This document shows, piece after piece, positions 9,455-41,441 of a stretch of DNA of 64,000 bases. The stretch is from an uncultured virus (IMG/VR IMGVR_UViG_2875459517_000002) (taxonomy: Duplodnaviria; Heunggongvirae; Uroviricota; Caudoviricetes): IMG/VR virus record IMGVR_UViG_2875459517_000002. One strand, given 5' to 3'. The translations under genes were made by a program, and so were the position numbers. How positions within the stretch are numbered: the first letter of the stretch is position 1; each line of letters begins with the position of its first letter. The notes beneath the pieces are model-generated. The model was not told the DNA's origin and ran no database searches. It saw only the letters and a list, made by a program, of their open reading frames with translations.

Positions 9455-10450
9455 TTGCCGATATTAACTTTGAATGGACGTTTTGTGGACGTCGACATTC
9501 GGTATGAGCTCGAACAATTCGACTGGACCCGGCCGACGTGGGGCGATGAACGCCTGCTGGCCGCCAGTCCATTCAGATACGATCGGACTCCGAGCTTTTA
9601 CGTATACCTCGAAGACACAGCGTCGGCAAAAGCCGGCTATTGGGGCGACTCAGGCGCCTATGACGAAGAGTTTGCGCGGGGTGGGTTCGTTAAACTGCTC
9701 GCTTTCCTGCGCGGCGAAACCGAAGACGACGCAATCGATTACTTATTGGAAACGTATGCACCGGCGGCTGAAGGCGGGCGTATGGCGCTGCGGCTTCCGA
9801 AATTAAAGGCCGTCACGAAGCCGGAACCTTTAGCGGAATCGGTCCTCGCTGACACAACGCCGGGACCTAACGCTTATCTAACGGGCCGGGGCATTGCGGC
9901 CGCAGTACAAGAAGAGGCCGGCGTATCACTTGCCGGTAACGCAGTCGCGATCCCTTGGCGGCTTCCTAACGGGCGGCTGGCTAACGTTAAGTATAGGGGG
10001 ACGAAGGGGAAGGCGTTCTGGTACGTAAAAGGCGGCATGCCTATCCGGTATTTAGTTTACGGAATGGATCTCGTGTATGCGCAGCGGATTAAAAGCGCAG
10101 TGATATGCGAGGCCGAGATCGATGCCATGGCGTGGCGGTCTGCGGGCATACCGGCGATCGGAACCGGTGGCAGCACATTTAATTTACAAAAGGCGGACAT
10201 AATTGCGCAGTCACCTATCGAATATTTAACGGTGGTTACAGATAACGACAAAGCTGGCGAAAAGTTACGGCGGGAGATTGAGCGTTATTTGATCGGAAAG
10301 GTGCGGCTTGCGCACGGTTATATTACGGAGGTGAAAGACGCTGATGAACTACTTATAAAGCGCGGTACAGAAGCGTTGCGAGACGTGTATGATCGTGCGG
10401 AGGTCGTGAAGCATTCTTTACGTTTAGGTTCGGGAATTCCCGTACTTTAG
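9455..10450 (+). CDS. DNA primase (TOPRIM domain)
   Basis: YLTGRGI, NVKYR, CEAEIDA, TDNDKAG, KDADE motifs; next to the helicase. Confidence 0.9.
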   Translation: MPILTLNGRFVDVDIRYELEQFDWTRPTWGDERLLAASPFRYDRTPSFYVYLEDTASAKAGYWGDSGAYDEEFARGGFVKLLAFLRGETEDDAIDYLLETYAPAAEGGRMALRLPKLKAVTKPEPLAESVLADTTPGPNAYLTGRGIAAAVQEEAGVSLAGNAVAIPWRLPNGRLANVKYRGTKGKAFWYVKGGMPIRYLVYGMDLVYAQRIKSAVICEAEIDAMAWRSAGIPAIGTGGSTFNLQKADIIAQSPIEYLTVVTDNDKAGEKLRREIERYLIGKVRLAHGYITEVKDADELLIKRGTEALRDVYDRAEVVKHSLRLGSGIPVL

Positions 10451-10466
10451 GTCGGCGGAGGTTGTA

Positions 10467-10712
10467 TTAACCCTCCGTGTTGCTGTCGGATACCTCAATC
10501 CAATCGTACAGATCTTCGGGCGCACAGCCGAGCATCATCGCGATATTGTAGGTTCGTTCGATGCTCGGCAGATTCCGAAGGCTGACGTAATCGGACATTT
10601 GCGTTTTTGATACTCCGACCATTGCTGCGAGTTGACTGAGACTAATTCCGCGTTTCTTGCATAGTTCGGGTATCCGACATTTGCCGACCTTAAACGTAAT
10701 AAACACCTCCAT
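10467..10712 (-). CDS. XRE-family HTH regulator (true start possibly ATT at 10700)
   Basis: SLSQLAAMVGVSKTQMSDY...PSIE...IA..LGC..EDLY. Confidence 0.85.
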   Translation of the reverse strand: MEVFITFKVGKCRIPELCKKRGISLSQLAAMVGVSKTQMSDYVSLRNLPSIERTYNIAMMLGCAPEDLYDWIEVSDSNTEG

Positions 10713-10765
10713 TCGTAAAGGTGTCCGTAATATTTTATCTTAATTAAGTATTAATTTCCATTAGA

Positions 10766-10975
10766 TCATTCTTTAACAATTCTAATGACTTTTTCAACCG
10801 GGACATCAAGGAATAAACAAATTTTTTCCAAAGTGCCTATGTACATTTTTAAATTCGCTTGCATGTGGTTTTCTTTAATACTGGTCTGGGTGCGTGAGCT
10901 TATGACCTGTCTGAGATCGCTCAGGTTCATTTCTTTTTCTTCTAAGGTTTTGAACAATGGGGAAAAATCGACCAT
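10766..10975 (-). CDS. Cro/C1-type HTH regulator, divergent from aimR
   Basis: FSPLFKTL...TLEKICLFLDVPVEKVI; RBS aggagg. Confidence 0.85.
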   Translation of the reverse strand: MVDFSPLFKTLEEKEMNLSDLRQVISSRTQTSIKENHMQANLKMYIGTLEKICLFLDVPVEKVIRIVKE

Positions 10976-10996
10976 TTTAAAAATCCTCCTAAATAA

Positions 10997-11028
10997 ATGT
11001 TTACACGTCTAAACATTTTTATTATACT
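10997..11028 (+). promoter_or_regulatory. SigA-like aimR promoter overlapped by palindromic operator ATGTTTA-N6-TAAACAT
   Basis: TTTACA(11000)-17-TATACT(11023); perfect 7-bp inverted repeat 10997-11016. Confidence 0.65.
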
Positions 11029-11088
11029 TCAATTATACTTAACGAATAGATAAAAGTCATTCATTAATTCAAATAGGGGTGAAATTAC

Positions 11089-12315
11089 ATGGATTCCGTT
11101 CGGGATTTTTTGTTTAATAGTATAGAAGACAGGGATGACATTACAGACGATGATCTTGCTCGACATTTGAGAGTGGGAGGGAAACAGGTTAGGAACCTGC
11201 GGAACGGCGATCGCGAATTGACTTTTAGAAGTTTGCTTATTCTTACACAATTAGTTGATGGCAAGAAATACTCTGAACACATCTCCAATTGGTACGATTT
11301 ACTAGATAGCGACGACTGTATCCGTAATTTATTTGAATACGCGGCTATTACAAGAAATATAGAACTGCTGGATAGGCATATAAAAAAATATCAAGATGAA
11401 AAGAAATCCACTGTAGAGAAATACATCAAGGTTTACACATTCATCCGCGATTACATGAAAGGAGATATTAGCTTCTATGAGATCGATGATGAGATCGCTA
11501 AGCTCACGACACTTAAAAACCCCAAACTTAAGCTTCTAATTGAAATATACGAGTGTATTTCTTTACTACAAAGACGAGAATTTTCATATGTACTCGCAAA
11601 GGCTTCTGAAATTGAAAAACGTATCCGAAAGATGAGCGATAAAACTCAATTATTCGAAAAGGAATGTTACTTGTACAGAGTTTCAGAGGTATTAGCATTT
11701 ACACATTTATTTATGAATAATTTAGATGAAGCAAGGCACTATTCACACATCTTACTAAATGCTAAAATTAACAAAAGAGTTGATTCTGACGCTCTTTATA
11801 TATTAGGAATGACTAATTTACTGCACGATGAAGAACTATGCCTCCACTACTTAAAGCGTAGTTTATCCGCAGCTAAAGAAACGGGGATAGCTAGATTAGA
11901 GGGGTATGCATACTACAATTACAATTTCGCGAAAATTCTGATGTCCCGCAGCATCGATGACAACGCGCCTAGACCACTTCTTGCTGTTCAAAAGTTTCGT
12001 AATAATGAGATTAGTCAGGATAAAGCTCAAGAAGTAATTTTAGAAATGGGAGATCCTGATCTGACTACATATTTCGAATCGTGTTGCGGAAAAGAAAAAA
12101 GACACAAAAAGTTTTGCGAGCTGGTGTCCACTTCTAATCTTTTCTTCGCAGTTATTATTGTAAGGGATATGATTCAGTCCGGGGAGAACAGCGACTTTGT
12201 CAAGACCCTTACAGAAAACCTAAAAACTGTAGAAAAGGGAGATGTTGTTTTTGAAGAAGATTTTATTTGTTGCTTTAATGTGTGTAGCTTTGGTTTCAGG
12301 AGTGCTTGCGCTTAA
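11089..12315 (+). CDS. aimR: AimR-family arbitrium receptor/regulator (HTH plus TPR-like)
   Basis: 408 aa, helical; IRNLFEYA...KYIKVY resembles SPbeta-type AimR as recalled; directly followed by a peptide-precursor gene. Confidence 0.85.
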   Translation: MDSVRDFLFNSIEDRDDITDDDLARHLRVGGKQVRNLRNGDRELTFRSLLILTQLVDGKKYSEHISNWYDLLDSDDCIRNLFEYAAITRNIELLDRHIKKYQDEKKSTVEKYIKVYTFIRDYMKGDISFYEIDDEIAKLTTLKNPKLKLLIEIYECISLLQRREFSYVLAKASEIEKRIRKMSDKTQLFEKECYLYRVSEVLAFTHLFMNNLDEARHYSHILLNAKINKRVDSDALYILGMTNLLHDEELCLHYLKRSLSAAKETGIARLEGYAYYNYNFAKILMSRSIDDNAPRPLLAVQKFRNNEISQDKAQEVILEMGDPDLTTYFESCCGKEKRHKKFCELVSTSNLFFAVIIVRDMIQSGENSDFVKTLTENLKTVEKGDVVFEEDFICCFNVCSFGFRSACA

Positions 12316-12364
12316 TGCTAATGAGGGCAGCAAGGAGGTAGCAATAAACGCAATAGGGGGATAA
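12251..12364 (+). CDS. aimP: AimP arbitrium pre-pro-peptide MKKILFVALMCVALVSGVLALNANEGSKEVAINAIGG (predicted mature INAIGG)
   Basis: Hand-translated, not in the ORF track; TTG start after RBS aaaggga; Sec signal peptide; VA followed by a C-terminal hexapeptide; overlaps the aimR 3' end by 65 nt. Confidence 0.88.
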   Translation: MKKILFVALMCVALVSGVLALNANEGSKEVAINAIGG

Positions 12365-12373
12365 TTATTTCTA

Positions 12374-12401
12374 AGGGCCTGTATCAAACAGGCCTCTTTT
12401 T
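12374..12401 (+). terminator. Terminator after aimP
   Basis: ggcctgt-atcaa-acaggcc hairpin followed by tcttttt. Confidence 0.8.
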
Positions 12402-12421
12402 ATGTTTACATGTTTGAACAT
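12402..12421. promoter_or_regulatory. Second copy of the ATGTTTA-N6-TRAACAT operator
   Basis: atgtttacatgtttgaacat versus atgtttacacgtctaaacat (17/20 identical). Confidence 0.6.
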
Positions 12422-12522
12422 ATCTGTAAATTTACAATCTTGTTCCTTTTCAAATAACTTCAAAATATATGTGCTAATATATGGTCATGGAAGAAAATAA
12501 TAAAAAAAATCTTTCCTGAATG

Positions 12523-12552
12523 TGTCCATTCTGATATGTGCATTCGCAGTTA
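12523..12552 (+). promoter_or_regulatory. Bipartite motif TGTCCATT-N11-ATTCGCAGTTA, copy 2
   Basis: Same boxes and spacing as 989-1018; just upstream of the sigma gene RBS. Confidence 0.6.
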
Positions 12553-12573
12553 ATATTGAAAGGGGAAATCACA

Positions 12574-13209
12574 TTGCAAAATAATGAAAACTTAATAATC
12601 TTGATTGACGATTTTCGAGAAAAAGGAGATCAAAACTCGTTCAATGAGGTTTTTGAATACTTCCGGCCGCTAGTTCGGAATCTCGCTAGAAAATATGGTC
12701 GAGGATGTCCGATCTTGTTCGATGAAATTGTAAGCGAGCTGAACGAGAAGATATGGCGGATCGTTGAAAAGTTCGATAAGACTCGATCGAGAGAAGTAGT
12801 CGGTCATTTTAAGCTCCATCTTTCGCGGGCAGCAATCGATGTAACGCGGATGAAAAATGGGACTTATGCAAAGAAACGGGTACTGTTAGATGCTTCGGCG
12901 GAAGAGAATGCTGCAACATTCGAATCTGATTCCGATGATCTAATGGAGGATCACGTAATTGCGATGATTGATGGAGAAATAAAAACGGACCAAGATAAGC
13001 TGCAACTTATCAAGGCCCTAACGGAAAATTCCTGCTCACTAACGACTGCAATCGTTAAGGAGCATCTTGCAAGCGAACGACCTACATACGCTTCGATCGG
13101 CAGTAAGGTAGGCGTCCATTACAAAAAAGTAGAACGTGTAATCAAAGGGTTAGCGAAAAATTTCGACGCTTCTCACCACGGCGAACTTAACGCTTTTCTA
13201 TCTGTGTAA
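12574..13209 (+). CDS. Phage sigma-70-like factor
   Basis: Region-2-like GDQNSFNEVFEYFRPLVRNLARKY...IWRIVEKFD; C-terminal HTH; TTG after RBS aaagggga. Confidence 0.75.
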   Translation: MQNNENLIILIDDFREKGDQNSFNEVFEYFRPLVRNLARKYGRGCPILFDEIVSELNEKIWRIVEKFDKTRSREVVGHFKLHLSRAAIDVTRMKNGTYAKKRVLLDASAEENAATFESDSDDLMEDHVIAMIDGEIKTDQDKLQLIKALTENSCSLTTAIVKEHLASERPTYASIGSKVGVHYKKVERVIKGLAKNFDASHHGELNAFLSV

Positions 13210-13511
13210 CACACGCTATACGCAGCTAGGCCCGAAGGACTTTCGCTACGTCCTCATTGTATTGCATATTGTCAACAAATTCAAGGGAACAATTATGCGA
13301 ACAAGTCCTCGGCCTAGTGCGATTATCCTTAAAATAACGGAGGCTAACGTACTATGCATACATCGAATTTACCCACATTTAACGAATCTCAAACGCTTTT
13401 AGCGCTAGATGAGCGCAAACTAACCGATTTCATTTACCAAGGCGCATGGCTGCACGATGAAGACCCGGCCGACTATCTCCCGGCTACTCCGATTAAGGCG
13501 GTGCGCGTCGG

Positions 13512-14078
13512 ATGAAAAAATACGGAGTAACCAAGCATGCTGTTGATCGTGCAGTTGAACGACTTGGCTACGACCGCGGATCTGCTGTCGGATGTATAAA
13601 TAACCTTATGCAAACGGCTCATTATATCGGAGACGCGAATGATCATAACGGAAAGACGTCACGAATATTCGACCACATAAAGTCGCGTGTCAGACTCGTA
13701 GTAATCGATAATAAAGTCGTCACTGTGTATAAAATGCACGAAGGATTAGCGCCAATCGACGCTACGCCATCCGGAAGTCCGAATCCAATTAACGGTCTTC
13801 CAGACGAACTGAAGACGGTAATCAAACGTAAATCGGGTGCTATCATTGTCCGTCATAAACGCGAATTACGAAGCTTAACGATTCAGCTTGCGGAGAAGAA
13901 CCTCGAAATTGCGCAACTCGAATTAAACCGCGCAAAAGCTCGCGCACATAAGATTATCGCAGTCATTGACGCAAAGATCGCCGTTGCTCGTTCTGAATAC
14001 GCATCGATTAACGAAAAAGCTACCGCGATTAAATCCGAAATTGAATCGATTGAGAAAGGCGTGGCTGCGTATGTCTGA
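13512..14078 (+). CDS. Hypothetical protein (TKHA..R N-terminal domain plus coiled coil)
   Basis: VTKHAVDRAVER...VVTVY motif; RBS ggcggtg. Confidence 0.6.
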   Translation: MKKYGVTKHAVDRAVERLGYDRGSAVGCINNLMQTAHYIGDANDHNGKTSRIFDHIKSRVRLVVIDNKVVTVYKMHEGLAPIDATPSGSPNPINGLPDELKTVIKRKSGAIIVRHKRELRSLTIQLAEKNLEIAQLELNRAKARAHKIIAVIDAKIAVARSEYASINEKATAIKSEIESIEKGVAAYV

Positions 14079-28696: not shown

Positions 28697-29482
28697 ATGG
28701 CGGAAACCAAAATGAACGTACAGCTTATCGCACATACGCAAGTCTCTCGTAGCTTCTTAGATACGTTTGTTCCGTGCGGTGATGAAACGGACGGCCAAGC
28801 GGTCGCCCTAACCGCAATCCGAACGTGTTATAGCGCCAACAAACCGACCGAAATCGTCGCAATGGAAGGCGCCAAGTATTTCGGCTCCAAAGCGTCAGAC
28901 GGCGGCGCAGGCACGGACGCCGACCGGCTTTTCCGGCACATCTTCGCATCCAAACATACGTCGACGTTGGAGCATATCTCGTTTACCTTTGCGATTGAGG
29001 GCGTCAGCCGGGCGTTACTGGCGCAACTTACGCGGCATCGCGTCGGATTTAGCTTCAGCGTCCAGTCACAGCGTTATGTGCGGATGGGGAGCGATGATAG
29101 ATCCGGAGGGTTCGATTACGTGATCCCGGAAAAAGTTACGAGCGATAAAACGGCGGACATGTACGATTTTGTATACGGAGTGCCACTCAGCGACCGTCCT
29201 GCTACAGAAATATTCGCGGAAGCTATGGAGATAGCGCAACAAGCCTACGATAAATTACGAGAAGCAGGGGTGCCCGCAGAAGATGCGAGAGCCGTCCTTC
29301 CGAACGCAGCCGCAACGAATCTCGTTATGACTGCGAACCTGACCGCGTTGCTTTCGTTCTATTCTAAGCGTCGTTCTGGAAAGGGCGCACAAAAGGAGAT
29401 TTCAGATCTGGCGGAAATGTTGAGAAGGGAAGTGGAATCTGTAGAACCTTGGACTTCACAGTTCTTTGAGGCGGCAGGATGA
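28697..29482 (+). CDS. thyX: FAD-dependent thymidylate synthase
   Basis: H.S.LEH, QLTRHRVGFSFSVQSQRY, EDARAVLP, AQKEI. Confidence 0.95.
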   Translation: MAETKMNVQLIAHTQVSRSFLDTFVPCGDETDGQAVALTAIRTCYSANKPTEIVAMEGAKYFGSKASDGGAGTDADRLFRHIFASKHTSTLEHISFTFAIEGVSRALLAQLTRHRVGFSFSVQSQRYVRMGSDDRSGGFDYVIPEKVTSDKTADMYDFVYGVPLSDRPATEIFAEAMEIAQQAYDKLREAGVPAEDARAVLPNAAATNLVMTANLTALLSFYSKRRSGKGAQKEISDLAEMLRREVESVEPWTSQFFEAAG

Positions 29483-30036
29483 AAACGTGTAAATTAGTGG
29501 GTTGTTTTAAGTCCTCTTATTGTAAAGACTTATGCAAAGCTCATTACAATAAGCTACGGGAATATGGAGACGTTAGGCATAACGGAAGACTATCCAGACG
29601 GAAACCTATTAGGTTTCGTGTTTCAGCAGATGGTTGCTTTGAATGTACTTCCCATTTATTAAATTCAAGTGGCTATCCCGAATATCACTTCAACGGGAAA
29701 AAGACTACAGTCTATAAGTACATTTATGAAGAATGCTTCGGTCATGTCGAGGACGGGAAAATCGTTAGACACAAGTGTGATAATCGTCTATGCATAAACC
29801 CAGAACACCTCTTAGTAGGGACTCACATAGATAATATGCGCGATATGACATCAAGAAACAGGCAATGCAAAGGGGTAGATTCTCCTTTTGCTAAATTAAA
29901 CGAAAAGGATGTCAAGAAAATTAGGGAATTGTTCGACGAAGGCCTTAGCAATACTAAAATAGCGGATCTGTTTAACGTGTCAAGAACTACTATTTACTAT
30001 ATAAGAAAAGGAAAGACGTGGAGGCATGTTTCTTAA
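29479..30036 (+). CDS. Free-standing HNH endonuclease with C-terminal HTH
   Basis: VRHKCDNRLCINPEHL..GT..DN..D; N-terminal Cys/His finger. Confidence 0.9.
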   Translation: MKTCKLVGCFKSSYCKDLCKAHYNKLREYGDVRHNGRLSRRKPIRFRVSADGCFECTSHLLNSSGYPEYHFNGKKTTVYKYIYEECFGHVEDGKIVRHKCDNRLCINPEHLLVGTHIDNMRDMTSRNRQCKGVDSPFAKLNEKDVKKIRELFDEGLSNTKIADLFNVSRTTIYYIRKGKTWRHVS

Positions 30037-34130: not shown

Positions 34131-34514
34131 ATGGGAACGGTAAAAATCGATCTACACCGCAAGGACCGCGAATTCCACGCAGCCTATGCGCTCGATAACG
34201 CAGAGGGCGTCAAGTTGCTACTCGCCGATTACCAGAAGTTCGTCAGCCGGAAGCGATGCGGCGACTATGCGGCCGTGGAAGTGCTGATCGATATTCATAA
34301 AGCGATTGAGCTCGCCGGCTTAACGGATCGGCAACGGCAGGCGATCGAGCTCGTTTACTTCGGCGAATTAACGCAAACCGAGGCGGGCGAACGGATGGGC
34401 ATAACGCAGCAAGGCGTCGTATCTCATTTGAACGCTGCAGCCGATAGCTTGGCGGAAATTTATTATTATTGGGCGAGCCATGACGAAGGCTACGCGATAA
34501 GGGGGACGAATTAG
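34131..34514 (+). CDS. Sigma-70 region-4 HTH protein (putative late regulator)
   Basis: LTDRQRQAIELVYFGELTQTEAGERMGITQQGV. Confidence 0.8.
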   Translation: MGTVKIDLHRKDREFHAAYALDNAEGVKLLLADYQKFVSRKRCGDYAAVEVLIDIHKAIELAGLTDRQRQAIELVYFGELTQTEAGERMGITQQGVVSHLNAAADSLAEIYYYWASHDEGYAIRGTN

Positions 34515-35143
34515 TGGATAACGGTTTATTGCACGAAATGATTACGGAATTGCAGCTCGAAGTTAGACACGATTATAAGACGGGCGGTCCGTTAGCTTGG
34601 CGCTGTGTTTCCGGCCAGCCGCGAGAAGGCGATCACGTATTAGTTGACGGCGAAATCGTTACGTATAAGGACGAAGAGCACGCCGCCTTAGATTTGCGGA
34701 CCATTTATATCTCCGATCGTGTAGCTCGCTTAGAGCGAATTACAGCGCTTACTGACGCTTATATGGACGCGACTGACAAAGAACCGGATTCCATCGCGTT
34801 AGACCGCATGGCGGATCTCGTACTTTTCGAAGAATTAACCGATACGAATAAAAACAAAATGAAGGCGGAATATCCGATCATGAGCGAACGCCTGGAAACG
34901 ACGCGCAAGAACGGAGAGCGTTCCGGTAAGCTGGCGGAAGAGTACGATCAAACGGGCCGCAATCGCGCCGAACCTACGCGCCGTTCACTATCGACTTACG
35001 AATCTATTTTCGTTGATGCGCGCGCCAAGTCGCTAAATAAGCAGCGCCGCAAGCGCTATAGCGATTTTGTTAACGGACGCACGGACGGCCAATTTACGGT
35101 TAATATCGCAACAGGCGAAAGGGTAGAACATACGGGCGCATAA
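34514..35143 (+). CDS. Hypothetical protein
   Basis: Coupled ORF followed by a small terminator hairpin. Confidence 0.6.
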   Translation: MDNGLLHEMITELQLEVRHDYKTGGPLAWRCVSGQPREGDHVLVDGEIVTYKDEEHAALDLRTIYISDRVARLERITALTDAYMDATDKEPDSIALDRMADLVLFEELTDTNKNKMKAEYPIMSERLETTRKNGERSGKLAEEYDQTGRNRAEPTRRSLSTYESIFVDARAKSLNKQRRKRYSDFVNGRTDGQFTVNIATGERVEHTGA

Positions 35144-35180
35144 GCGCCTTTTATTTATCTATTTACGGAGGTGCGACCGA

Positions 35181-35360
35181 ATGCAAAACGGATATTATTA
35201 CTGCTATTCTGCGAATCTATACGAATTCCTGCGCGACCATGACCAGCGCTATATCTGCGTAGGCTTAAACGAAAATACTTTACGGAAGTTTTGGCAATAT
35301 GCACGCACACCCGAACTCGATCGTTTGTTAACGGAGTGGCAGCGCCGCAAGCCGGATTAA
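35181..35360 (+). CDS. Small DUF5659-like protein (MQNGYYYCYSANLYEFL...FWQY...)
   Basis: Hand-translated, 59 aa; RBS ggaggtg. Confidence 0.65.
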   Translation: MQNGYYYCYSANLYEFLRDHDQRYICVGLNENTLRKFWQYARTPELDRLLTEWQRRKPD

Positions 35361-35392
35361 GTCGAATAGTTATTTAAGTGGAGGACGATTAT

Positions 35393-35821
35393 ATGAGCGA
35401 CAAAGCGAAGGCCCTTCCGTTTGATACTGCGGCGGGCTATACGGGCATACCTAACGTTATTCTTACGCATTATCAATACTTTCCGAAGCTGAACGGTAAC
35501 GCCGTGTTGGTATACGCGTTTCTACTGAAATTTTATAATGCGGACTACGGTTACGCTTTTCCAACGCAAGAACAGGCGGCCAGGGCGCTCGCGATGAGCG
35601 ATTCAACGTATCGTAACGCAGTTAAAACACTAGTTCAGGCGCAGCTTATACAAACGGTAGAGAACGGAGGCGGCGCGAAGAACCTCATCTATTATTTCCG
35701 CAAACCGATCGAAGACGAAACCGAGTTTTTTCGTATGTTTCCGGAAGCTGCCGAGAATAAACGGAAGCAGGACGCGATATGGTCGAATATTGGTGCGAAA
35801 AGGAAAGCGCGCGTGGTATAA
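35393..35821 (+). CDS. Short winged-HTH replication-initiator-like protein
   Basis: YT.IPN, YGYAFPTQEQAARALAMSDST...VKTL...LI...NLIYY. Confidence 0.75.
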   Translation: MSDKAKALPFDTAAGYTGIPNVILTHYQYFPKLNGNAVLVYAFLLKFYNADYGYAFPTQEQAARALAMSDSTYRNAVKTLVQAQLIQTVENGGGAKNLIYYFRKPIEDETEFFRMFPEAAENKRKQDAIWSNIGAKRKARVV

Positions 35822-35822
35822 T
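35793..35822 (+). promoter_or_regulatory. Extended -10 SigA promoter for the peptide gene
   Basis: TG-G-TATAAT at 35814-35822; weak -35 gtgcga. Confidence 0.65.
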
Positions 35823-35846
35823 TTTACTTTATCGGAGGTGAGACGA

Positions 35847-35921
35847 ATGGGAGAGATTAAACCGGGAGCTAATCCGTTGGAAAGCGCAATTAGAGGAGCG
35901 AGCCCGTCACGCGGAGCATAA
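35847..35921 (+). CDS. 24-aa poly-arbitrium mimic peptide MGEIKPGANPLESAIRGASPSRGA
   Basis: Hand-translated; strong RBS GGAGGTGA 35834-35841; own promoter and terminator; contains SAIRGA, SPSRGA and EIKPGA. Confidence 0.85.
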   Translation: MGEIKPGANPLESAIRGASPSRGA

Positions 35922-35925
35922 AACG

Positions 35926-35957
35926 AAAAAGGACGCCTTATACGGGCGTCTTTTCTT
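35926..35957. terminator. Bidirectional terminator
   Basis: aaaaag-gacgcct-tatac-gggcgtc-ttttctt. Confidence 0.8.
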
Positions 35958-36099
35958 CGTCATCTTCCGTTTGTAATTCAAGAACTTCGATCTGCGATTT
36001 TAAGATAGCTATGTCTCGGCTGTTTAGGTTCGTAGGTAATTCAAAGCGCGCAATCTGCCCGTTTGTAAGCGCAATGCGAGCGTATTGTTTTTCGTCCAT
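35938..36099 (-). CDS. Small hypothetical protein (MDEKQYARIALTNGQ..., 53 aa)
   Basis: Hand-translated; RBS aaggag. Confidence 0.5.
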   Translation of the reverse strand: MDEKQYARIALTNGQIARFELPTNLNSRDIAILKSQIEVLELQTEDDEEKTPV

Positions 36100-36138
36100 T
36101 CGTATAGCTCCTTCGGTGTTTATGCCTTAAATATATCA

Positions 36139-36951
36139 TCAGCTCTTCCACGAATCAAACGAAGGTATACGCAGCAGTCCTTTGCGCGTCTTAAATCGGT
36201 GCTTAACACGGCATTTTATCGGCTCTATATTCACGTATTTATCCGTTTCTCCTACGTCTGCCCGCTCCGAATGAAATCTCCGCCGATCTGCGTGCGGCAT
36301 AAACTCCATCATACCCGCATAAGAACCGTCTTCATACGCTAAAACGAGCGCATTATCCTCTTTCCGATATCCCGTAATCCAAACGTCAGTGTATTCGTAA
36401 TTAACGATCTTCAGCCAACGATCTGACCGATTATTTTCCGCGTAGGATGAATCTGCGCGCTTCATAACCACACCTTCAATGCCGGAGCTTTTCGCTAATT
36501 CGAAAACAGCGCGGCCATTGCCGGTAACGCTATCGACAATCTTAACGTTTGGATGATCGAGGGCAAGGCCGCTTAATAATTCCTTCCGCTCATATAACGG
36601 CTTCGACGCAACCGATGCGCCGTCAAGACGCAATATATCAAACACGCAGAATACTATCGGATGATAACTTCTTCGCGATTGAAACCGCTCCATCATAGCC
36701 TCGAAGTCTCCGGCGCCTGTCGTTCCGGGCACGATAAGCTCGCCGTCAAGTACGGTGCCGTCCGGAATCTGTAACGTGTGGAGTTCGGGGAATTTAGCGG
36801 TGACTTCGTTGTTGTGGCGCGTGTAGAGGCGTATTTGTCCGTTAGTTTTGGACGCGATCAGACGTATGCCGTCGAATTTGATTTCCGTAATGTAGTCGTC
36901 AGAGTCAAACGGGTCTTTTGCAGACTCTAATAGCATTGGCGAAATAAACAA
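36139..36951 (-). CDS. ATP-dependent DNA ligase
   Basis: PMLL, EIKFDGIR, LDGELI, VFDIL, EGVVMK, WLK. Confidence 0.93.
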   Translation of the reverse strand: MFISPMLLESAKDPFDSDDYITEIKFDGIRLIASKTNGQIRLYTRHNNEVTAKFPELHTLQIPDGTVLDGELIVPGTTGAGDFEAMMERFQSRRSYHPIVFCVFDILRLDGASVASKPLYERKELLSGLALDHPNVKIVDSVTGNGRAVFELAKSSGIEGVVMKRADSSYAENNRSDRWLKIVNYEYTDVWITGYRKEDNALVLAYEDGSYAGMMEFMPHADRRRFHSERADVGETDKYVNIEPIKCRVKHRFKTRKGLLRIPSFDSWKS

Positions 36952-37042
36952 AAAATCACCTCGTTTCAGCTTCGTATTACTTTAATGATATAGTAATATT
37001 AGGCTAGAGCGAAGTGATTAGGCATTGGTAATGTATGGTTAA

Positions 37043-37438
37043 TTAATTCTCTTTAAATATGCCGGAAGCTTTAAATCTATTTAATAACCTATTCATTTCC
37101 TGTAGGGTGAAATCATGGCTATTAATAAGAGTGACAACATCCTCGTCAGTCAATTTTCTTCTCTCAATCACCTTACGTCTTTCGATAACCTCGCCATCCG
37201 CAGTTACACTTTGTTCTTTTTCTTCCAAGGAGATGTTCCACCCGTGAAGATTGATTCCTAGAAAACGGTGTCTCGAATCTCCAATAGGTTTATATGCGAT
37301 AATTGCTCCTGGATTTCTTCCGCCGTCTTGTTCATACGCCTTTTTGTTAAGATCTTGCTCTATTTCTCGTAATTGAATGATTTCTTGTAATAATTCCAAA
37401 CGATACACCTCTTTTATATATTCTTTTTCATTCCGCAA
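37043..37438 (-). CDS. Hypothetical protein
   Basis: AT-rich ORF coupled to the upstream small ORF. Confidence 0.55.
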   Translation of the reverse strand: MRNEKEYIKEVYRLELLQEIIQLREIEQDLNKKAYEQDGGRNPGAIIAYKPIGDSRHRFLGINLHGWNISLEEKEQSVTADGEVIERRKVIERRKLTDEDVVTLINSHDFTLQEMNRLLNRFKASGIFKEN

Positions 37439-37596
37439 CGTCTACATTCACGCAAAAATTTTCCGTTCTTCACTGAGCTTTTGAACAGAGTGTAGTCACA
37501 GTTATCACAACGTCCTGCGCGTACATCCGGCATTTCTTTGTACTCGTAAGTTATGCTCGTATCATATCCCTTTGTCTCGTAATCTTTTCCCTCCAT
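37414..37596 (-). CDS. Small zinc-ribbon protein
   Basis: CDNC...CRRC; RBS ggagg. Confidence 0.65.
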   Translation of the reverse strand: MEGKDYETKGYDTSITYEYKEMPDVRAGRCDNCDYTLFKSSVKNGKFLRECRRCGMKKNI

Positions 37597-37777
37597 ATGC
37601 TCAACCTCCCTGTATGTTCATGTTGTATAGGCAGATTATAACATGCCTCAACAGGGGTGGACTGACTAAAACTAGCACCAATCACGAAATTCTGTACAAA
37701 TTAACAGAAAATGGGCCGCCTCAGACGCGTTCAGGTACGATAGGTATCCGAAAGCTCGGAGCGGCTCATTTCGTTCA

Positions 37778-38215
37778 TTATTTAACGTTGAATTTCGCTG
37801 ACTCAAACGTGCCGACGTATTTGCGCTTGCCTGAATCCGAATAGCAGTCGATCTGTATAACGTATGCGCCTTTGCCGGTCTTGCTGCGGATCGACTTCGC
37901 ACTAAACGACTTCAGAGGCGTTGTCGTTTTGAAGCTTCCGCGCTGTACCAAGCCGGTATCAGTCAGCCCGCCACCACTACGCTTTTTATAAACGCCTGCC
38001 GTATAATACAGTGTGGCGCCGCCTTTCTTCTCGGCTTTCCAATCGACCGTCTTTGCGCTGCTGCTATACGTAGCCGCATCCGTATATACGCGAGCTTTAT
38101 GTCCGAACTTCTCCGTCTGCCATCCCGACCACGCTGCGTCTGCTTGCGGTGCCAAAGCGATAGTACTCGTCAATAAAGCCGCGGTGATTACGATTGATTT
38201 AAATAAACGTTTCAT
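37778..38215 (-). CDS. Secreted basic protein
   Basis: Sec signal peptide MKRLFKSIVITAALLTSTIALAPQADA; RBS gaggagg. Confidence 0.75.
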   Translation of the reverse strand: MKRLFKSIVITAALLTSTIALAPQADAAWSGWQTEKFGHKARVYTDAATYSSSAKTVDWKAEKKGGATLYYTAGVYKKRSGGGLTDTGLVQRGSFKTTTPLKSFSAKSIRSKTGKGAYVIQIDCYSDSGKRKYVGTFESAKFNVK

Positions 38216-38320
38216 ACGATTTCCTCCTCGACTTCCAGCCGCGTACCACACGTAGGGCAGCACGCGTCCGGTTTGATTTCGATATCTAATTTTACGTAAT
38301 TACAATCGTGACAAGCGTAT

Positions 38321-38524
38321 TCAATCATCGTTAATGTCTTCCGTTTCCTTTTCGATACGATATCCGAAATATTGCATCAGCGTATTAATCCCGATTTGGT
38401 AAGCGCGCCCGCATCGACCGAAATTGGCGGCGGGACGCACGTATAATTCGAGGATCTGCGCTTCCTGCTGCGGTGTTAATGCCGGCACATCCGGCCATAC
38501 TTTACGAATCATAAGCTGTTCCAT
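38321..38524 (-). CDS. Hypothetical protein
   Basis: RBS ggagg; operon context. Confidence 0.6.
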   Translation of the reverse strand: MEQLMIRKVWPDVPALTPQQEAQILELYVRPAANFGRCGRAYQIGINTLMQYFGYRIEKETEDINDD

Positions 38525-38528
38525 ACCG

Positions 38529-38618
38529 TTATCGCCTCCGTTTTAGTGCTACGACAAGACCCGCGATTGCTACGATCAGGGCCGCCGCCGTAATGCCGAT
38601 GGTTAATACCGTTAACAT
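38529..38618 (-). CDS. 29-aa hydrophobic peptide MLTVLTIGITAAALIVAIAGLVVALKRRR
   Basis: Hand-translated; RBS aaggagg; single TM helix with basic tail. Confidence 0.7.
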   Translation of the reverse strand: MLTVLTIGITAAALIVAIAGLVVALKRRR

Positions 38619-38668
38619 GGCGCGCTCGCCTCCTTGTGTTTGCGTTATGGTTACGGTACTATAAGAGA

Positions 38669-38740
38669 CACGGGGCGGACTCTCCAATCAACCCCGTATC
38701 AATGTTCTGGCGCTAGTCGTTTTTGCGATTAGCGTTTTTT
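38669..38740 (+). ncRNA. Putative antisense antitoxin RNA
   Basis: Promoter TTGTGT(38634)-17-TACTAT(38657); hairpin 38670-38697; terminator cgctagtcgt-tttt-gcgattagcg-tttttt overlapping the toxin 3' end. Confidence 0.6.
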
Positions 38741-38826
38741 GCGTTAACGCAGGCGGTTGCCAGATTCGTTATCGCAATGACGAAGTTTACTATCGCCGTT
38801 ATGATTAGTACCGTTTCCGCGTTCAA
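38713..38826 (-). CDS. 37-aa putative type I toxin MNAETVLIITAIVNFVIAITNLATACVNAKNANRKND
   Basis: Hand-translated; TTG start, RBS aaggagg, promoter TTGACA-17-CATAAT; TM helix plus charged tail. Confidence 0.7.
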   Translation of the reverse strand: MNAETVLIITAIVNFVIAITNLATACVNAKNANRKND

Positions 38827-38853
38827 TCGTTTTTCCCTCCTTTCTATATCTCT

Positions 38854-38883: not shown

Positions 38884-40644
38884 TTAAATCGGAATATTTT
38901 GATATTCTGTGTCGGTTTCATTGAGCGATAGGGTTCCGGCTATCTTATTTCCGATGACCCGCGAATTAATAGAATCGGAAGTCTTTATCGGATTGTACAG
39001 CCCGAAAGAGTTGGCCGAATACACAACGTTTTCCTTCACGAGCGCACCGTCGGTGTTTTTCGTTTGAATTCCATAACCACCGGAAGCTTTCCGGTTAAAC
39101 GTTACGTCATTGCCGGATATCTCAGGTTTTTTACCACCAACAACGTAAATCGGTATCAAACATTTCGCGTCAGTGATGTCGTTGTTCTTAATGCGAACGG
39201 TTCGCCCCTCAGCGCTTTCTCCGTAAATAGCCATGTTTGCCGGTTTTGGTATGCGGCTGTATTCGATATCCACGTCGCTTCCCTTATCGAAAGATATAGC
39301 GTAGCCTGTTGCGCCAGAGTAGTCGGTAAGATCAATGTCATTATCTATCAGTTTCGCCGAAGACCGCGTAACTACGACGCCTTGCTTACTGCGTTTAATG
39401 TCGTTCGACTTCGCTTTAACGTTAACGGAATCGGCAATCTCTATCGCAGCAATATCCGAATCGTGGAGATCGTTACCTTCGAACGTTATATCTTTTGAGT
39501 TACGCGCACTACATAATTTACCCGGACAATGGTTTACGATGTTATCCGAAAACTTAACGTTCTTGGCTTCGAAGGTAGCCAATGCGGTGCCGTCCGCGCT
39601 AAGCTCCGAAATTGTATTGCCGGATACTGAAACGTCTGCTCCGCGAACGTCAATACCACTGCTGAAGCCTTTTATCGTATTTCCTGTGATTGTCGTGTTA
39701 TTTCCGGTAAAGCCAGCCGACACACCAAGGCTCGTAATTGCGGTATATTTCTTGTCCGTACGTACTAACGTATTATTCGAAATGGCAGTGTCGGTTCCGA
39801 ATCCGTAAGAGATCGAGTTATCCGAATAGTTGCCGGAGATAACGACCTCGTATCCGCTGAAATTACAAACGGACTGCAGCACATTTCCTTTGAAAGTATT
39901 GTTCGTTATCCTCACATTGCGAGGCTCTTCGTAGTCGATATCGCCTTCACCGTAACCTTCGATATCAATGCCGAACATAGGCTTACATCCATCGTTTATG
40001 CCGGCGTTGGTTATTACGTTTTTATCGATCTTTACATCTTCGCCGCCGGTGACCGATATATTGTTTCGACGAGCACCGTCCAATTTACAACGCTCAATCG
40101 TAATATTGCGGGCGGGTCGGTAAGTCGTCCAAGGAACGTTTAACATGCCTTGCGCGTTCACCATAATACAATCGCCCGTACATTCCGAAATATCCACGCC
40201 TTCAATCACGACATTCTTGGCGCCATGTACGTTTATGCCGTATCCCCATTCGTGCGTTTCTTTCTTTACGCGATCACCGTGCCCGGTAAAGTTGTGCTGA
40301 TAACGGTCACCACGTATCTTACCGCCTTTTATCGTCACGTTTTCGAATTCTCCAATGTAGATACAGGAATATCCGTAAGAACTATTTGGCTCTACAATAA
40401 GTTCTGCTTTTGGATGCAATATTAGGGTCATATGTGACGGTACACGTATCCCGGCACCTTCTTCCGGGTTAACTGCAATACGGTTTACTGCGTCGATAAG
40501 GTATTTTCCCTTAGGGATTTCTACCTCAGAATAACCAGCCTCAGCCGCCTCGTATATTGCGCAATTAATTCCTTGTGTAGTCATAGCCGCCTCAGTCCCG
40601 TCCCAACGCACATCGTACTTTTCAGCTTCCAACGTATATCTCAT
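38884..40644 (-). CDS. Right-handed parallel beta-helix protein (pectate-lyase-like, putative polysaccharide depolymerase)
   Basis: IPKGKYLI, WGYGI, GDCI, RRNNISV, GIDIE and many I..N.I repeats. Confidence 0.85.
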   Translation of the reverse strand: MRYTLEAEKYDVRWDGTEAAMTTQGINCAIYEAAEAGYSEVEIPKGKYLIDAVNRIAVNPEEGAGIRVPSHMTLILHPKAELIVEPNSSYGYSCIYIGEFENVTIKGGKIRGDRYQHNFTGHGDRVKKETHEWGYGINVHGAKNVVIEGVDISECTGDCIMVNAQGMLNVPWTTYRPARNITIERCKLDGARRNNISVTGGEDVKIDKNVITNAGINDGCKPMFGIDIEGYGEGDIDYEEPRNVRITNNTFKGNVLQSVCNFSGYEVVISGNYSDNSISYGFGTDTAISNNTLVRTDKKYTAITSLGVSAGFTGNNTTITGNTIKGFSSGIDVRGADVSVSGNTISELSADGTALATFEAKNVKFSDNIVNHCPGKLCSARNSKDITFEGNDLHDSDIAAIEIADSVNVKAKSNDIKRSKQGVVVTRSSAKLIDNDIDLTDYSGATGYAISFDKGSDVDIEYSRIPKPANMAIYGESAEGRTVRIKNNDITDAKCLIPIYVVGGKKPEISGNDVTFNRKASGGYGIQTKNTDGALVKENVVYSANSFGLYNPIKTSDSINSRVIGNKIAGTLSLNETDTEYQNIPI

Positions 40645-41441
40645 TATTCGTTGCCTCCAACGTTATAGTTTTCGTTAATGAAATCCGACAGCAGCCCGGT
40701 AAACTTATAGAACGTCTCGGTTTCGGTTCCGGCGCGTCCGTTAAGCGAGAACTTAACGAACATGCTTTTACGCAATCCGGTACTGAGCTCGATCTGTAAG
40801 CTTTCGCCGGTTATGCACTTATTCGCTATGTTCGCGCTGCTTGCGCCTGCGAATCGATGTCCGGCGCCTACATGTTCGGCACTAAAGCCGGCCGCATTCA
40901 AGCGATCTACTAATGTACGGCCGCGGACCGGATCGGTGCCGCCTACGATAATATGCTCGGAGCTTTCGTTATAGCCGTGGAGCGATATAACGCGTTGGTG
41001 GCGCGCAACTAAGGATAGCGCGGTCGGTTCATCGAAATGGGTACTCGTGATGTGAAGGTCGGAGCCGTTCGGCGTCTTAAGGGATTCGAATAGATACGTA
41101 GAATAGTCGTTGCTGAGTTCGCGAGCAAGTTCGCTAGTTCCGCCTTCAATACTGCCGCCATGTGGCGCTAGTATCAGGACGGGCGTGTCGTGGTCGATTG
41201 CGGAAATATTGTAGTTCGTATCGGGTTCGTTGGCTTGGAGTTCGGCAAAGTTGCGGTAAACGTCGGTGGCTTGCGCGGTGACTGAAGTGGATGCGAATAA
41301 CATTGCGCATAGAATAAACGCTGTGATATACTGGAAGTGCTTCGTTCGATTCGGACGGTGCAGCTTTGCTTTGGTCGGTGGGGCTGCGCCTCCGTTTCGT
41401 TCTTTAATCGCCTTATTCAGTTTTCGTGGATCGTTAATCAT
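40644..41441 (-). CDS. Poly-gamma-glutamate hydrolase (PghP family) with signal/anchor segment
   Basis: APHGGSIEGGTSE, HITSTHFDEP, SLHGY, NIAN, QIELS. Confidence 0.9.
   Translation of the reverse strand: MINDPRKLNKAIKERNGGAAPPTKAKLHRPNRTKHFQYITAFILCAMLFASTSVTAQATDVYRNFAELQANEPDTNYNISAIDHDTPVLILAPHGGSIEGGTSELARELSNDYSTYLFESLKTPNGSDLHITSTHFDEPTALSLVARHQRVISLHGYNESSEHIIVGGTDPVRGRTLVDRLNAAGFSAEHVGAGHRFAGASSANIANKCITGESLQIELSTGLRKSMFVKFSLNGRAGTETETFYKFTGLLSDFINENYNVGGNE

What the first reader, a model, noticed from the sequence alone, without database searches (positions are those of the whole stretch)
35793..35957. Stand-alone mini-gene stringing together other phages' arbitrium signals (EIKPGA-SAIRGA-SPSRGA): candidate communication jammer
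Seen: 35847-35921 encodes MGEIKPGANPLESAIRGASPSRGA. It has a strong RBS (GGAGGTGA), an extended -10 promoter (TGgTATAAT, 35814-35822) and a terminator right after the stop, so it looks like a monocistronic unit that host SigA could transcribe in a lysogen. It has no signal peptide, no adjacent aimR, and lies about 23 kb from this phage's own aimR-aimP, whose peptide is different (INAIGG). Known: SAIRGA is exactly the phi3T arbitrium hexapeptide, and SPSRGA fits the xxxRGA class of SPbeta-like phages. From memory (needs checking), SPSRGA is a predicted natural signal and EIKPGG is the Wbeta signal, one residue from EIKPGA. Binding of AimP to AimR shuts off lysis. Inference: 18 of 24 residues are three arbitrium-like hexamers, so the prophage may make a cytoplasmic poly-signal decoy that inactivates non-cognate AimR receptors. 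That would push superinfecting or co-resident phages into lysogeny and protect the host. The terminal SPSRGA has a free C-terminus; the internal units would need proteolytic release. I am not aware of such an element being described.
Basis: partly seen in the sequence, partly recalled or inferred. Interest (0 to 1): 0.96.

Follow-up and report, generated by a model that had tools for sequence, protein, structure and literature searches.

The report
Phage mini-gene stringing rivals' arbitrium signals
A family of temperate Bacillus phages carries a tiny, fast-changing gene whose product is a chain of the lysis-or-dormancy signal peptides used by other phages, never its own, which suggests that viruses keep a dedicated gene for feeding false signals to their competitors.

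Summary
Window 35847-35921 (+) encodes MGEIKPGANPLESAIRGASPSRGA, with a strong ribosome-binding site, a conserved TATAAT box and a strong terminator.

The same cassette lies at the same site in 24 other records. These give 16 different peptides, and 2 more come from a protein collection. All are built from shuffled units.

- **Matches to known signals:** 8 of 11 SPbeta-type units are exact natural clade-2 arbitrium signals: GMPRGA, SAIRGA, SASRGA, SIIRGA, SPSRGA, GIVRGA, GFTVGA and GFPRGA (Table S2 of PMC13220667).
- **Never the phage's own signal:** this holds in 0 of 14 records where both are known.
- **Selection acts on the peptide:** identical units are spelled by up to 6 DNA versions that differ only silently. 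The expression signals are 96% conserved, while the ORF is 70%.
- **Accessory gene:** it is present in 19 of 47 informative relatives. The cultured B. subtilis phages phi18-2 and 268TH002 have empty sites.

Most likely it is a receptor-less, leaderless poly-signal precursor that silences rival phages' AimR receptors. Expression, processing and binding are untested. I found no description of such a gene in five literature searches. Interest is high.

The parts
35814..35822 (+). TGgTATAAT; the -10 box TATAAT is 35817-35822 and holds the stop codon of the upstream gene. It marks the left edge of the cassette.
   Evidence: GTATAAT is kept in all 25 cassettes behind two unrelated upstream genes. 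The -35 is weak, and the consensus scan made no call.
35834..35841 (+). Ribosome-binding site GGAGGTGA, five bases before the ATG.
   Evidence: The promoter-to-ATG stretch averages 96.4% identity over 78 pairs, above the flanking gene at 90.6%.
35847..35921 (+). Mini-ORF of 24 codons plus TAA: MG | EIKPGA | NPLE | SAIRGA | SPSRGA.
35853..35870 (+). Unit 1, EIKPGA. It is in the style of the signals of sibling phages and of Wbeta.
   Evidence: Natural signals of relatives are ELRPGG and EIKVGG. EIKPGG is the Wbeta signal (passage in PMC8878798). No exact natural match was seen.
35871..35882 (+). Linker NPLE.
   Evidence: Four DNA versions of NPLE differ only at third codon positions.
35883..35900 (+). 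Unit 2, SAIRGA, the exact phi3T signal.
   Evidence: Table S2 of PMC13220667 lists it in 19 of 281 clade-2 systems. Four DNA versions have 5 variable sites, all silent. It differs in 5 of 6 codons from a natural aimP.
35901..35918 (+). Unit 3, SPSRGA, an exact natural clade-2 signal with a free C-terminus.
   Evidence: Table S2 lists it in 8 of 281 systems. The phi3T AimR responds to it (passages in bioRxiv 10.1101/2025.10.13.681967).
35923..35960 (.). Two-way intrinsic terminator shared with the converging minus-strand genes. It marks the right edge of the cassette.
   Evidence: -19.9 kcal/mol, z = -5.9. The scan called the hairpin 35932-35950 on the minus strand. It is also present at empty sites.
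35378..35821 (+). Upstream gene of 147 aa, HTH_36 / DnaD-like. It is not part of the cassette.
   Evidence: Pfam and PHROGs. In 20 of the 25 records a different 273-aa gene takes its place.
11089..12315 (+). The phage's own aimR.
   Evidence: Pfam AimR, 76 bits. It is 22% identical to a clade-2 AimR.
12242..12364 (+). The phage's own aimP: 40 aa with a signal peptide, ending ..EVAINAIGG.
36139..36951 (-). Converging ATP-dependent DNA ligase gene, given for context.
   Evidence: Pfam. It is 61-63% identical to SPbeta YoqV/LigB.

Best explanation
The stretch is a self-contained accessory cassette: a -10 box, a strong ribosome-binding site, a 17-39 codon ORF and a terminator. It sits at one fixed site of a family of temperate, integrase- and arbitrium-bearing Bacillus subtilis phages.

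Its product is a leaderless poly-signal precursor, a chain of hexapeptide units. Each unit is the arbitrium signal, or a near copy of it, of other phages. Most belong to SPbeta/phi3T-type (clade-2) phages, and one optional N-terminal unit is in the style of sibling phages. Short linkers separate the units.

Inferred steps, none of them shown:
1. The host RNA polymerase transcribes the cassette from the prophage and early in infection.
2. The peptide stays in the cell.
3. Methionine aminopeptidase removes the start Met. In 9 of the 18 variants this exposes the native N-terminus of GMPRGA or GFTVGA.
4. Host peptidases free the hexamers.
5. The hexamers occupy the AimR receptors of incoming or co-resident rival phages. 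This shuts off their aimX, so the rivals lysogenise or stay dormant instead of killing the cell that carries this prophage.

The set of units is reshuffled quickly, as expected in an arms race with the local phage community.
For: **Shown here**
- **One cassette, many contents.** There are 25 records and 16 peptides, plus 2 more in the protein collection. All stay in frame from the same ATG to a stop directly before the same terminator.
- **Exact signals.** 8 of 11 SPbeta-type units are exact natural clade-2 signals. Together these eight are used by 151 of the 281 catalogued clade-2 systems (Table S2).
- **Selection on the peptide, not the DNA.** GMPRGA has 6 DNA versions, SAIRGA 4 and SASRGA 5, and all differences are silent. 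They include Ser AGT/TCA and Arg AGA/CGC switches. A natural SAIRGA is spelled differently in 5 of 6 codons.
- **Conserved signals, variable cargo.** The expression signals are 96.4% conserved, the ORF 70% and the flanking gene 90.6%. There are 12 different peptides in 13 near-identical backgrounds.
- **Never self.** The phage's own signal appears in the mini-gene in 0 of 14 records. The own AimR is only 22% identical to a clade-2 AimR.
- **Rivals share the host.** Two provirus records also hold a clade-2 arbitrium locus. The adjacent ligase is SPbeta-like. Cultured relatives infect B. subtilis.
- **Gain and loss.** The cassette is present in 19 of 47 informative loci behind the 273-aa gene and in 4 of 6 behind the 147-aa gene. 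Exact empty sites exist.

**From papers**
- Non-cognate clade-2 peptides, including SPSRGA, SASRGA and SIIRGA, switch off the phi3T AimR, raise lysogeny and lower induction (sections and passages of bioRxiv 10.1101/2025.10.13.681967).
- Crosstalk favours lysogeny of incoming phages (abstract and Discussion of PMC13220667).
- Internal units of tandem phage Phr propeptides are released and active (abstract and passages of PMC11343458).
Against: - **No direct evidence of transcription or translation.** RNA-library contigs of two runs cover a relative of the region that is about 94% identical, but contigs cannot show a transcript. Two raw-read RNA runs held nothing.
- **Weak promoter.** The consensus scan called none in either context.
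- **Both peptide ends seem to matter.** AimR contacts both ends of the hexapeptide: P1 through T296/Q299/E300 and P6 through R228 (Table S4). Internal units must therefore be cut out.
- **Linkers unlike natural cleavage sites.** The residue before a hexamer is E, Q, Y, A or the start Met. Natural pro-AimPs are cut after [VT]A.
- **No processing or export gene nearby.** None lies beside the cassette.
- **Unmatched units.** Three SPbeta-type units (SIVRGA, GPVRGA, GPVRGV) and all five first-position units match no catalogued signal exactly.
- **A gap in the repertoire.** GFGRGA, the commonest clade-2 signal (56 of 281), never appears.
- **Sampling.** Most records are proviruses of related isolates, so they are not independent.
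Confidence: 0.55

Rival explanations
1. The targets are the same, but the route is public. The peptide builds up during the lytic cycle and is spilled at lysis. Secreted Bacillus proteases cut it, and neighbouring cells import the pieces through Opp.
For: - Extracellular proteases free internal pheromones from tandem phage Phr propeptides (PMC11343458).
- Linkers end in E or Y before the next unit. This would suit secreted Glu-specific and subtilisin-type enzymes of Bacillus; those specificities are recalled, not tested.
- The cassette ends a block of replication and nucleotide-metabolism genes.
- Exogenous non-cognate peptides work in the published assays.
Against: - All 18 variants lack a signal peptide, although the phage's own aimP has one. 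A broadcast signal would gain from secretion before lysis.
- One linker ends in Q and one is SSLE, so the cleavage rule is loose.
- Timing of expression is unknown.
Confidence: 0.2
2. The peptides act on the bacterium rather than on rival phages, for example by pushing the lysogen towards sporulation or a changed biofilm state through an AimR-independent sensor.
For: A 2026 preprint reports that SAIRGA changes B. subtilis colony development and raises sporulation without AimR (abstract of bioRxiv 10.64898/2026.08.23.746533).
Against: - That response is described as sequence-specific for one peptide. Here the content varies among at least 16 units, and most of them track the natural repertoire of receptors.
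- The never-self rule (0 of 14) has no reason under this reading.
Confidence: 0.07
3. The units tune the phage's own receptor, as weak agonists or antagonists, or they are a silent store from which a new own signal can be drawn by recombination.
For: - The first-position units resemble signals of the same AimR clade.
- Unit gain and loss by short repeats is evident.
Against: - The own AimR is 22% identical to clade-2 receptors, whose signals make up most of the cargo.
- A silent store would not keep a strong ribosome-binding site, an intact frame and only silent changes in internal units.
- The own aimP lies 23 kb away and shares no DNA with the units.
Confidence: 0.06
4. It is not a gene. It is either a chance ORF in an intergenic spacer or a small RNA or attenuator.
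For: The ORF is very short. The promoter is not called by the scan. Few annotation pipelines name it: the exact-sequence look-up found two variants, both without a name.
Against: - The frame is kept in 25 of 25 records across 11 lengths, and variation within units is silent only.
- There is no Rfam match, and the transcript shows no unusual fold (z = -0.98).
- No gene lies downstream on this strand for an attenuator to control.
- Two RGA within 12 residues occur once in the six frames of the window.
Confidence: 0.03

Closest known systems
AimP, the arbitrium propeptide of SPbeta, phi3T and related Bacillus phages
   Same: The units are the same hexapeptides that mature AimP yields. The last unit ends the protein, as in AimP.
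   Different: - There is no signal peptide and no neighbouring aimR.
- It has several different signals in one chain, none of them the phage's own.
- It is 17-39 aa long, against 40-43 aa for the aimP genes of this family.
- The residues before each unit are unlike the [VT]A of natural propeptides.
Tandemly duplicated Phr propeptides of phages phi3T and phi105 (PMC11343458)
   Same: One small precursor holds more than one pheromone, and internal units can be released and are active.
   Different: Those are secreted, paired with their own Rap receptor, and carry copies or near copies of the cognate signal. Here the units are foreign, there is no receptor and there is no export signal.
Arbitrium crosstalk between natural phages (PMC13220667; bioRxiv 10.1101/2025.10.13.681967)
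   Same: The proposed effect is the same: a non-cognate peptide silences a rival's AimR, which favours the rival's lysogeny and protects the emitter.
   Different: In those studies the manipulating peptide is the emitter's own working signal. Here a separate gene is devoted to foreign signals. Neither paper mentions such a gene in the parts I read.
Prophage 'morons': accessory genes with their own promoter and terminator set between phage genes (recalled concept)
   Same: The layout is the same: a -10 box, one small ORF and a terminator. Presence is polymorphic, with exact empty sites.
   Different: The cargo is a chain of communication signals, which is not known for morons as far as my searches reach.
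Multi-copy peptide precursors elsewhere, such as the yeast alpha-factor precursor and cyanobactin precursors with several cores (recalled)
   Same: Repeated short active peptides are separated by spacers that serve as cutting sites.
   Different: Those carry copies for the producer's own signalling or product and use known dedicated proteases. Here the units are different signals that belong to competitors.

Membership tests
AimP (arbitrium signal propeptide) | Encoded directly downstream of, and expressed with, its cognate aimR | tested here: not met
   The nearest aimR is 23.5 kb upstream. The neighbours are an HTH/DnaD-like gene and a ligase.
AimP (arbitrium signal propeptide) | N-terminal Sec signal peptide | tested here: not met
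   None of the 18 variants has a hydrophobic N-terminal stretch, by inspection. The phage's own AimP has one.
AimP (arbitrium signal propeptide) | C-terminal hexapeptide of the xxxxG[GA] type that is the mature signal | tested here: met
   The ORF ends in SPSRGA. 17 of the 18 variants end in RGA and one ends in RGV. SPSRGA is in Table S2.
AimP (arbitrium signal propeptide) | The signal is the ligand of the same phage's AimR | tested here: not met
   The own signal appears in the mini-gene in 0 of 14 records. Binding itself cannot be tested with these tools.
Tandem-pheromone RRNPPA propeptides (Phr type) | Several pheromone units in one precursor | tested here: met
   There are 2 to 4 units per ORF.
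Tandem-pheromone RRNPPA propeptides (Phr type) | Secreted, and paired with a cognate receptor gene | tested here: not met
   There is no signal peptide and no receptor gene beside it.
Prophage moron-type accessory cassette | Own promoter and terminator, one ORF, present or absent at a fixed site among relatives | tested here: inconclusive
   The terminator and the presence/absence pattern are met. The promoter is only a conserved -10 box with no experimental or scan support.
Functional ligand of clade-2 AimR receptors | Free hexapeptide binds AimR and abolishes aimX activation | not testable with these tools
   Published for the synthetic hexapeptides SAIRGA, SPSRGA, SASRGA and SIIRGA on the phi3T AimR. 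Release from this precursor is not shown.

The most novel reading that the evidence does not exclude
Temperate phages keep a dedicated, hypervariable 'password list' gene. It is a receptor-less, leaderless chain of their competitors' communication signals, reshuffled unit by unit as the local phage community changes. A lysogen uses it to force any incoming or co-resident arbitrium phage into dormancy. On this reading, deception between viruses is a selected trait with its own genetic locus. The unit content of each cassette would then record which phages compete in nature.
Probability: 0.5. Interest if true: 0.93.

Novelty: new variant of a known kind. Interest (0 to 1): 0.9.

Why it matters
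Arbitrium crosstalk was shown only in 2025-2026, and it was read as a side effect of similar signals. A separate gene made only of foreign signals, under selection for peptide identity and turning over faster than its flanks, would show that manipulating rivals' lysis-lysogeny decisions is itself an evolved function.

It would also offer:
- a compact natural tool to lock several SPbeta-type phages into lysogeny at once;
- a ready experimental system, since cultured B. subtilis relatives have an empty site;
- a sequence signature for finding similar spoofing genes in other peptide-signalling systems.

Tried and rejected
**Searches for relatives that found nothing**
- blastn of the region and tblastn of a 39-aa variant against 50,697 phage records gave no match.
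- The 147-aa upstream protein hit only a Sporosarcina phage.
- A pattern scan of one genome per prokaryote species gave 12 hits, none of them the cassette.
- A metagenome scan gave 33 hits, 1 of them the cassette.
- phmmer of the 39-aa variant against 1.84 billion representatives found only itself, one 29-aa variant and three long low-complexity proteins.
- Three further viral pattern scans (a unit-junction pattern, a stop-plus-terminator pattern and a second ribosome-site pattern) found no cassette outside this phage family. Their 8, 0 and 1 extra hits were unrelated.
- These patterns are exact-match probes taken from this family, so diverged analogues elsewhere would be missed.

**RNA evidence**
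- Two raw-read RNA runs of the species label of a DNA holder held no reads.
- Two RNA-library contig sets cover a relative that is about 94% identical, but they cannot show a transcript, a start or a strand.

**Other dead ends**
- Rfam gave no hit.
- The whole-transcript fold is unremarkable.
- The window's own assembly is not held, and the nearest record lacks the region.
- A complex prediction of AimR with the peptide could not be run.
- The search for homologous proteins does not take queries under 40 aa.
- Earlier findings of this scan: three look-ups, nothing.

**Readings considered and dropped**
- RiPP precursor: there are no modifying enzymes nearby.
- Attenuator leader peptide: there is no downstream gene on this strand.
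- Recent capture of an aimP 3' end: the codons differ.

**Supplements I could not see.** The supplementary tables of the bioRxiv preprints are closed, and Stokar-Avihail et al. 2019 Table S1 was not read. They may list signals that match the first-position units or SIVRGA and GPVRGA.
Full report
**1. The observation**

Window 35847-35921 (+) reads MGEIKPGANPLESAIRGASPSRGA and ends in TAA.
- GGAGGTGA lies at 35834-35841, five bases before the ATG.
- TGgTATAAT lies at 35814-35822, and its TAA is the stop codon of the upstream 147-aa gene.
- A hairpin at 35923-35960 folds at -19.9 kcal/mol. Shuffles average -7.4, z is -5.9, and 0 of 200 shuffles fold as well. An A-run precedes it and a U-run follows.
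- The phage's own aimR (11089-12315; Pfam AimR, 76 bits) and aimP (12242-12364; 40 aa with a signal peptide, ending ..EVAINAIGG) lie 23.5 kb upstream.

- SAIRGA is the phi3T signal.
- SPSRGA is a natural clade-2 signal to which the phi3T AimR responds (passages; Table S2 of PMC13220667).
- EIKPGG is the Wbeta signal (passage in PMC8878798).

As a control, the six frames of the window hold 26 RGA tripeptides. Only one place has two within 12 residues, and it is this ORF.

The promoter is the weak point:
- The nine-base motif occurs 4 times in the window against 2.3 expected.
- The consensus scan calls no promoter here.

**2. The same cassette in relatives**

I searched with the upstream protein, with four DNA motifs of the cassette, with a unit-junction pattern and with the alternative upstream protein. 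Together these gave 23 IMG/VR records and one metagenome contig that carry the cassette. With the window that makes 25 records.

All share the TATAAT box, the ribosome-binding site, the ATG and the terminator. The ORF between them differs, giving 16 peptides of 17 to 39 residues. Two more variants turned up in the protein collection.

Every peptide can be read as units:
- an optional first unit: EIKPGA, EIRPGA, ELNPGA, ELKPGG or EIKLGA;
- one to three SPbeta-type units: GMPRGA, SAIRGA, SIIRGA, SASRGA, SPSRGA, GIVRGA, SIVRGA, GPVRGA, GPVRGV, GFTVGA or GFPRGA;
- linkers: NPLE, SPLE, SSLE, SPLQ, GPAE, GPTE, GPQLY, FPQRY or KELPKPKY.

Examples:
- M-GMPRGA-NPLE-SAIRGA-GPAE-SASRGA
- MG-ELNPGA-GPQLY-GMPRGA-SPLE-SIIRGA-GPAE-SASRGA
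- M-GFTVGA-KELPKPKY-GFPRGA

**3. The units are real signals**

Table S2 of PMC13220667 lists 26 mature peptides for 281 clade-2 AimR/AimP pairs. Eight of the 11 SPbeta-type units are in that list:

| Unit | Clade-2 systems (of 281) |
|---|---|
| SASRGA | 42 |
| GMPRGA | 32 |
| GFTVGA | 23 |
| SAIRGA | 19 |
| SIIRGA | 17 |
| SPSRGA | 8 |
| GIVRGA | 5 |
| GFPRGA | 5 |

Together they account for 151 of 281 systems.
- SIVRGA, GPVRGA and GPVRGV are not listed. Each is one residue from a listed peptide.
- GFGRGA, the commonest signal (56 of 281), never occurs in a mini-gene.
- The first-position units match none of the natural AimPs that I read in relatives: 12 loci and 29 of 31. They do share the style of ELRPGG, EIKVGG, GIKPGG, TIKPGG and ETRPGG found there, and of the Wbeta signal EIKPGG.

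**4. It is under selection as a peptide**

- **Frame.** All 25 ORFs keep the frame across 11 lengths.
- **Silent variation within units.**
  - GMPRGA has 6 DNA versions with 3 variable sites, all at third positions.
  - SAIRGA has 4 versions with 5 variable sites, all at third positions.
  - SASRGA has 5 versions with 8 variable sites. These include a switch of the Ser codon family (AGT against TCA/TCT) and of the Arg family (AGA/AGG against CGC).
- **The RGA tail.** Across all SPbeta-type units Arg uses 5 codons, Gly 2 and Ala 4, with a single amino-acid change (the V of GPVRGV). I made this tally by hand.
- **Window against L149.** They encode the same peptide with four silent differences behind different upstream genes.
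- **Not a recent capture.** A natural phi3T-type aimP found in one record spells SAIRGA differently from the window in 5 of 6 codons.
- **Conserved signals, variable cargo.** In 13 loci that share the 273-aa upstream gene (78 pairs), mean identity is 96.4% for the promoter-to-ATG stretch, 90.6% for 600 bases of the flanking gene, 86.2% for the terminator and 70.0% for the ORF. These 13 loci hold 12 different peptides.

**5. It never holds the phage's own signal**

Thirteen of 15 related records have an AimR of the window's type. The two without are fragments.

Their AimPs are ordinary, with a signal peptide, 42-43 aa, next to aimR. They end in INAIGG, DIRVGA, DIRIGA, EIKVGG, ELRPGG or ANQLGG.

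In the 14 records where both the own signal and the mini-gene are known, the own hexamer is absent from the mini-gene (0 of 14). The window's AimR is 22% identical to a clade-2 AimR over 208 residues.

**6. The phage, its host and its rivals**

The window is a temperate siphovirus-like genome. It has:
- an integrase at its left end and a repressor-like regulator;
- arbitrium, two sigma-like factors, DNA polymerase, helicase and primase;
- ribonucleotide reductase, dUTPase, ThyX and a methylase;
- a poly-gamma-glutamate hydrolase, and structural genes from about 46 kb onward.

The cassette sits where a rightward block of replication-type genes meets leftward genes. The first sizeable leftward gene is a ligase 61-63% identical to SPbeta YoqV/LigB.

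The cultured B. subtilis phages 268TH002, 268TH007 and phi18-2 belong to the same family. Their 273-aa gene is 88-90% identical and their AimR is 56% identical.

Two provirus records also contain a clade-2 arbitrium locus:
- one has an integrase, a repressor-like gene, an AimR (240 bits) and an AimP ending GFGRGA;
- the other has a phi3T-type aimR split by a transposase gene, with an intact aimP ending SAIRGA.

In both, the mini-gene lacks the neighbour's signal.

**7. Gain and loss**

- Behind the 273-aa gene the cassette is present in 19 of 47 informative loci. Four further loci end too early to tell.
- Behind the 147-aa gene it is present in 4 of 6 loci, plus the window.
- Empty sites go straight from the upstream stop codon to the same terminator.
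- phi18-2 reads ..GTATAA then the terminator leader. 268TH002 reads ..GCATAA, the six bases that end the mini-ORFs, which looks like a deletion scar.

**8. Mechanism**

Shown so far: a conserved, frame-preserving, peptide-selected cassette whose cargo is a changing set of other phages' signals.

From the literature:
- Free non-cognate clade-2 hexapeptides silence the phi3T AimR, raise lysogeny and lower induction. A prophage gains if a superinfecting phage lysogenises instead of lysing.
- Crosstalk favours lysogeny of incoming phages.

Inferred: the product is a poly-signal precursor aimed at rivals' AimR. I favour a cell-autonomous route, for three reasons:
- All 18 variants lack a signal peptide, although the phage's own aimP has one.
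- The cassette has the layout of an independently expressed accessory gene.
- Nine of the 18 variants begin M-GMPRGA or M-GFTVGA. Removal of Met before Gly is a general rule of methionine aminopeptidase (established knowledge), and it would expose the native N-terminus.

The open step is release of the units:
- AimR contacts both ends of the hexapeptide (Table S4).
- The residues before units (E, Q, Y, A or the start Met) differ from the [VT]A of natural propeptides.
- No protease or exporter gene is nearby.

The public route is the main rival: release at lysis, cutting by secreted proteases and import through Opp. It has a precedent in tandem Phr propeptides of phages (PMC11343458).

RNA data do not settle expression.

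**9. Novelty**

Five full-text searches used the hexapeptides, the new units, and words for orphan, decoy, stand-alone or tandem AimP. I also read the relevant parts of the two crosstalk papers, a 2026 review and the tandem-Phr paper. None gave a description of a receptor-less gene made of foreign arbitrium signals.

The library lacks most subscription journals, and I could not open preprint supplements.

The element fails three of four defining features of AimP. It is best called a new variant within peptide-signalling precursors: an orphan, leaderless, heterologous poly-signal gene.

Noticed in passing
L137 (IMG/VR locus, AimR-adjacent small ORF): A canonical AimP with a signal peptide ends ..SDKVGG-FILF-SDKVGG. 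This is a tandem duplication of the mature unit inside an ordinary aimP.
   Followed up: no
L142 2865-5425 (record G003): A phi3T-type aimR is split by a DDE transposase ORF, while its aimP (..TVASAIRGA) is intact. It lies 3-5 kb downstream of that record's mini-gene and is followed by an integrase.
   Followed up: partly
L141 3663-7300 (record G010): A second integrative element lies next to the phage. It has an integrase, an HTH_3 regulator, a clade-2 AimR (240 bits) and an AimP ending GFGRGA. That signal is not in this record's mini-gene.
   Followed up: partly
window 10001-14000: The phage's own arbitrium locus is 40-42% G+C, against about 49% for most of the genome. This suggests it arrived by horizontal transfer.
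   Followed up: no
window 36139-36951 (-): The ATP-dependent DNA ligase is 61-63% identical to SPbeta YoqV/LigB, a sign of gene exchange with SPbeta-type phages.
   Followed up: no
L221 2318-2345 and L222 2313-2340: The cultured B. subtilis phages 268TH002 and phi18-2 have empty sites. In 268TH002 the upstream gene ends in the same six bases that end the mini-ORFs, as if the cassette had been deleted.
   Followed up: partly
window 40644-41441 (-): A poly-gamma-glutamate hydrolase gene (Pfam, 215 bits) points to a host that makes a PGA capsule or slime.
   Followed up: no
window 29479-30036 (+): An HNH endonuclease with an HTH domain sits directly after thyX. It looks like a homing endonuclease insertion in the nucleotide-metabolism block.
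   Followed up: no
window 12538-13209 and 34131-34514 (+): There are two sigma-factor-like genes. One follows aimP directly and the other lies 1.3 kb upstream of the mini-gene.
   Followed up: no
window 34131-38836: Contigs from two RNA libraries of one coded organism cover a relative of this stretch that is about 94% identical, including the mini-gene region, at depth 36-170. This is presence only, not proof of transcription.
   Followed up: partly
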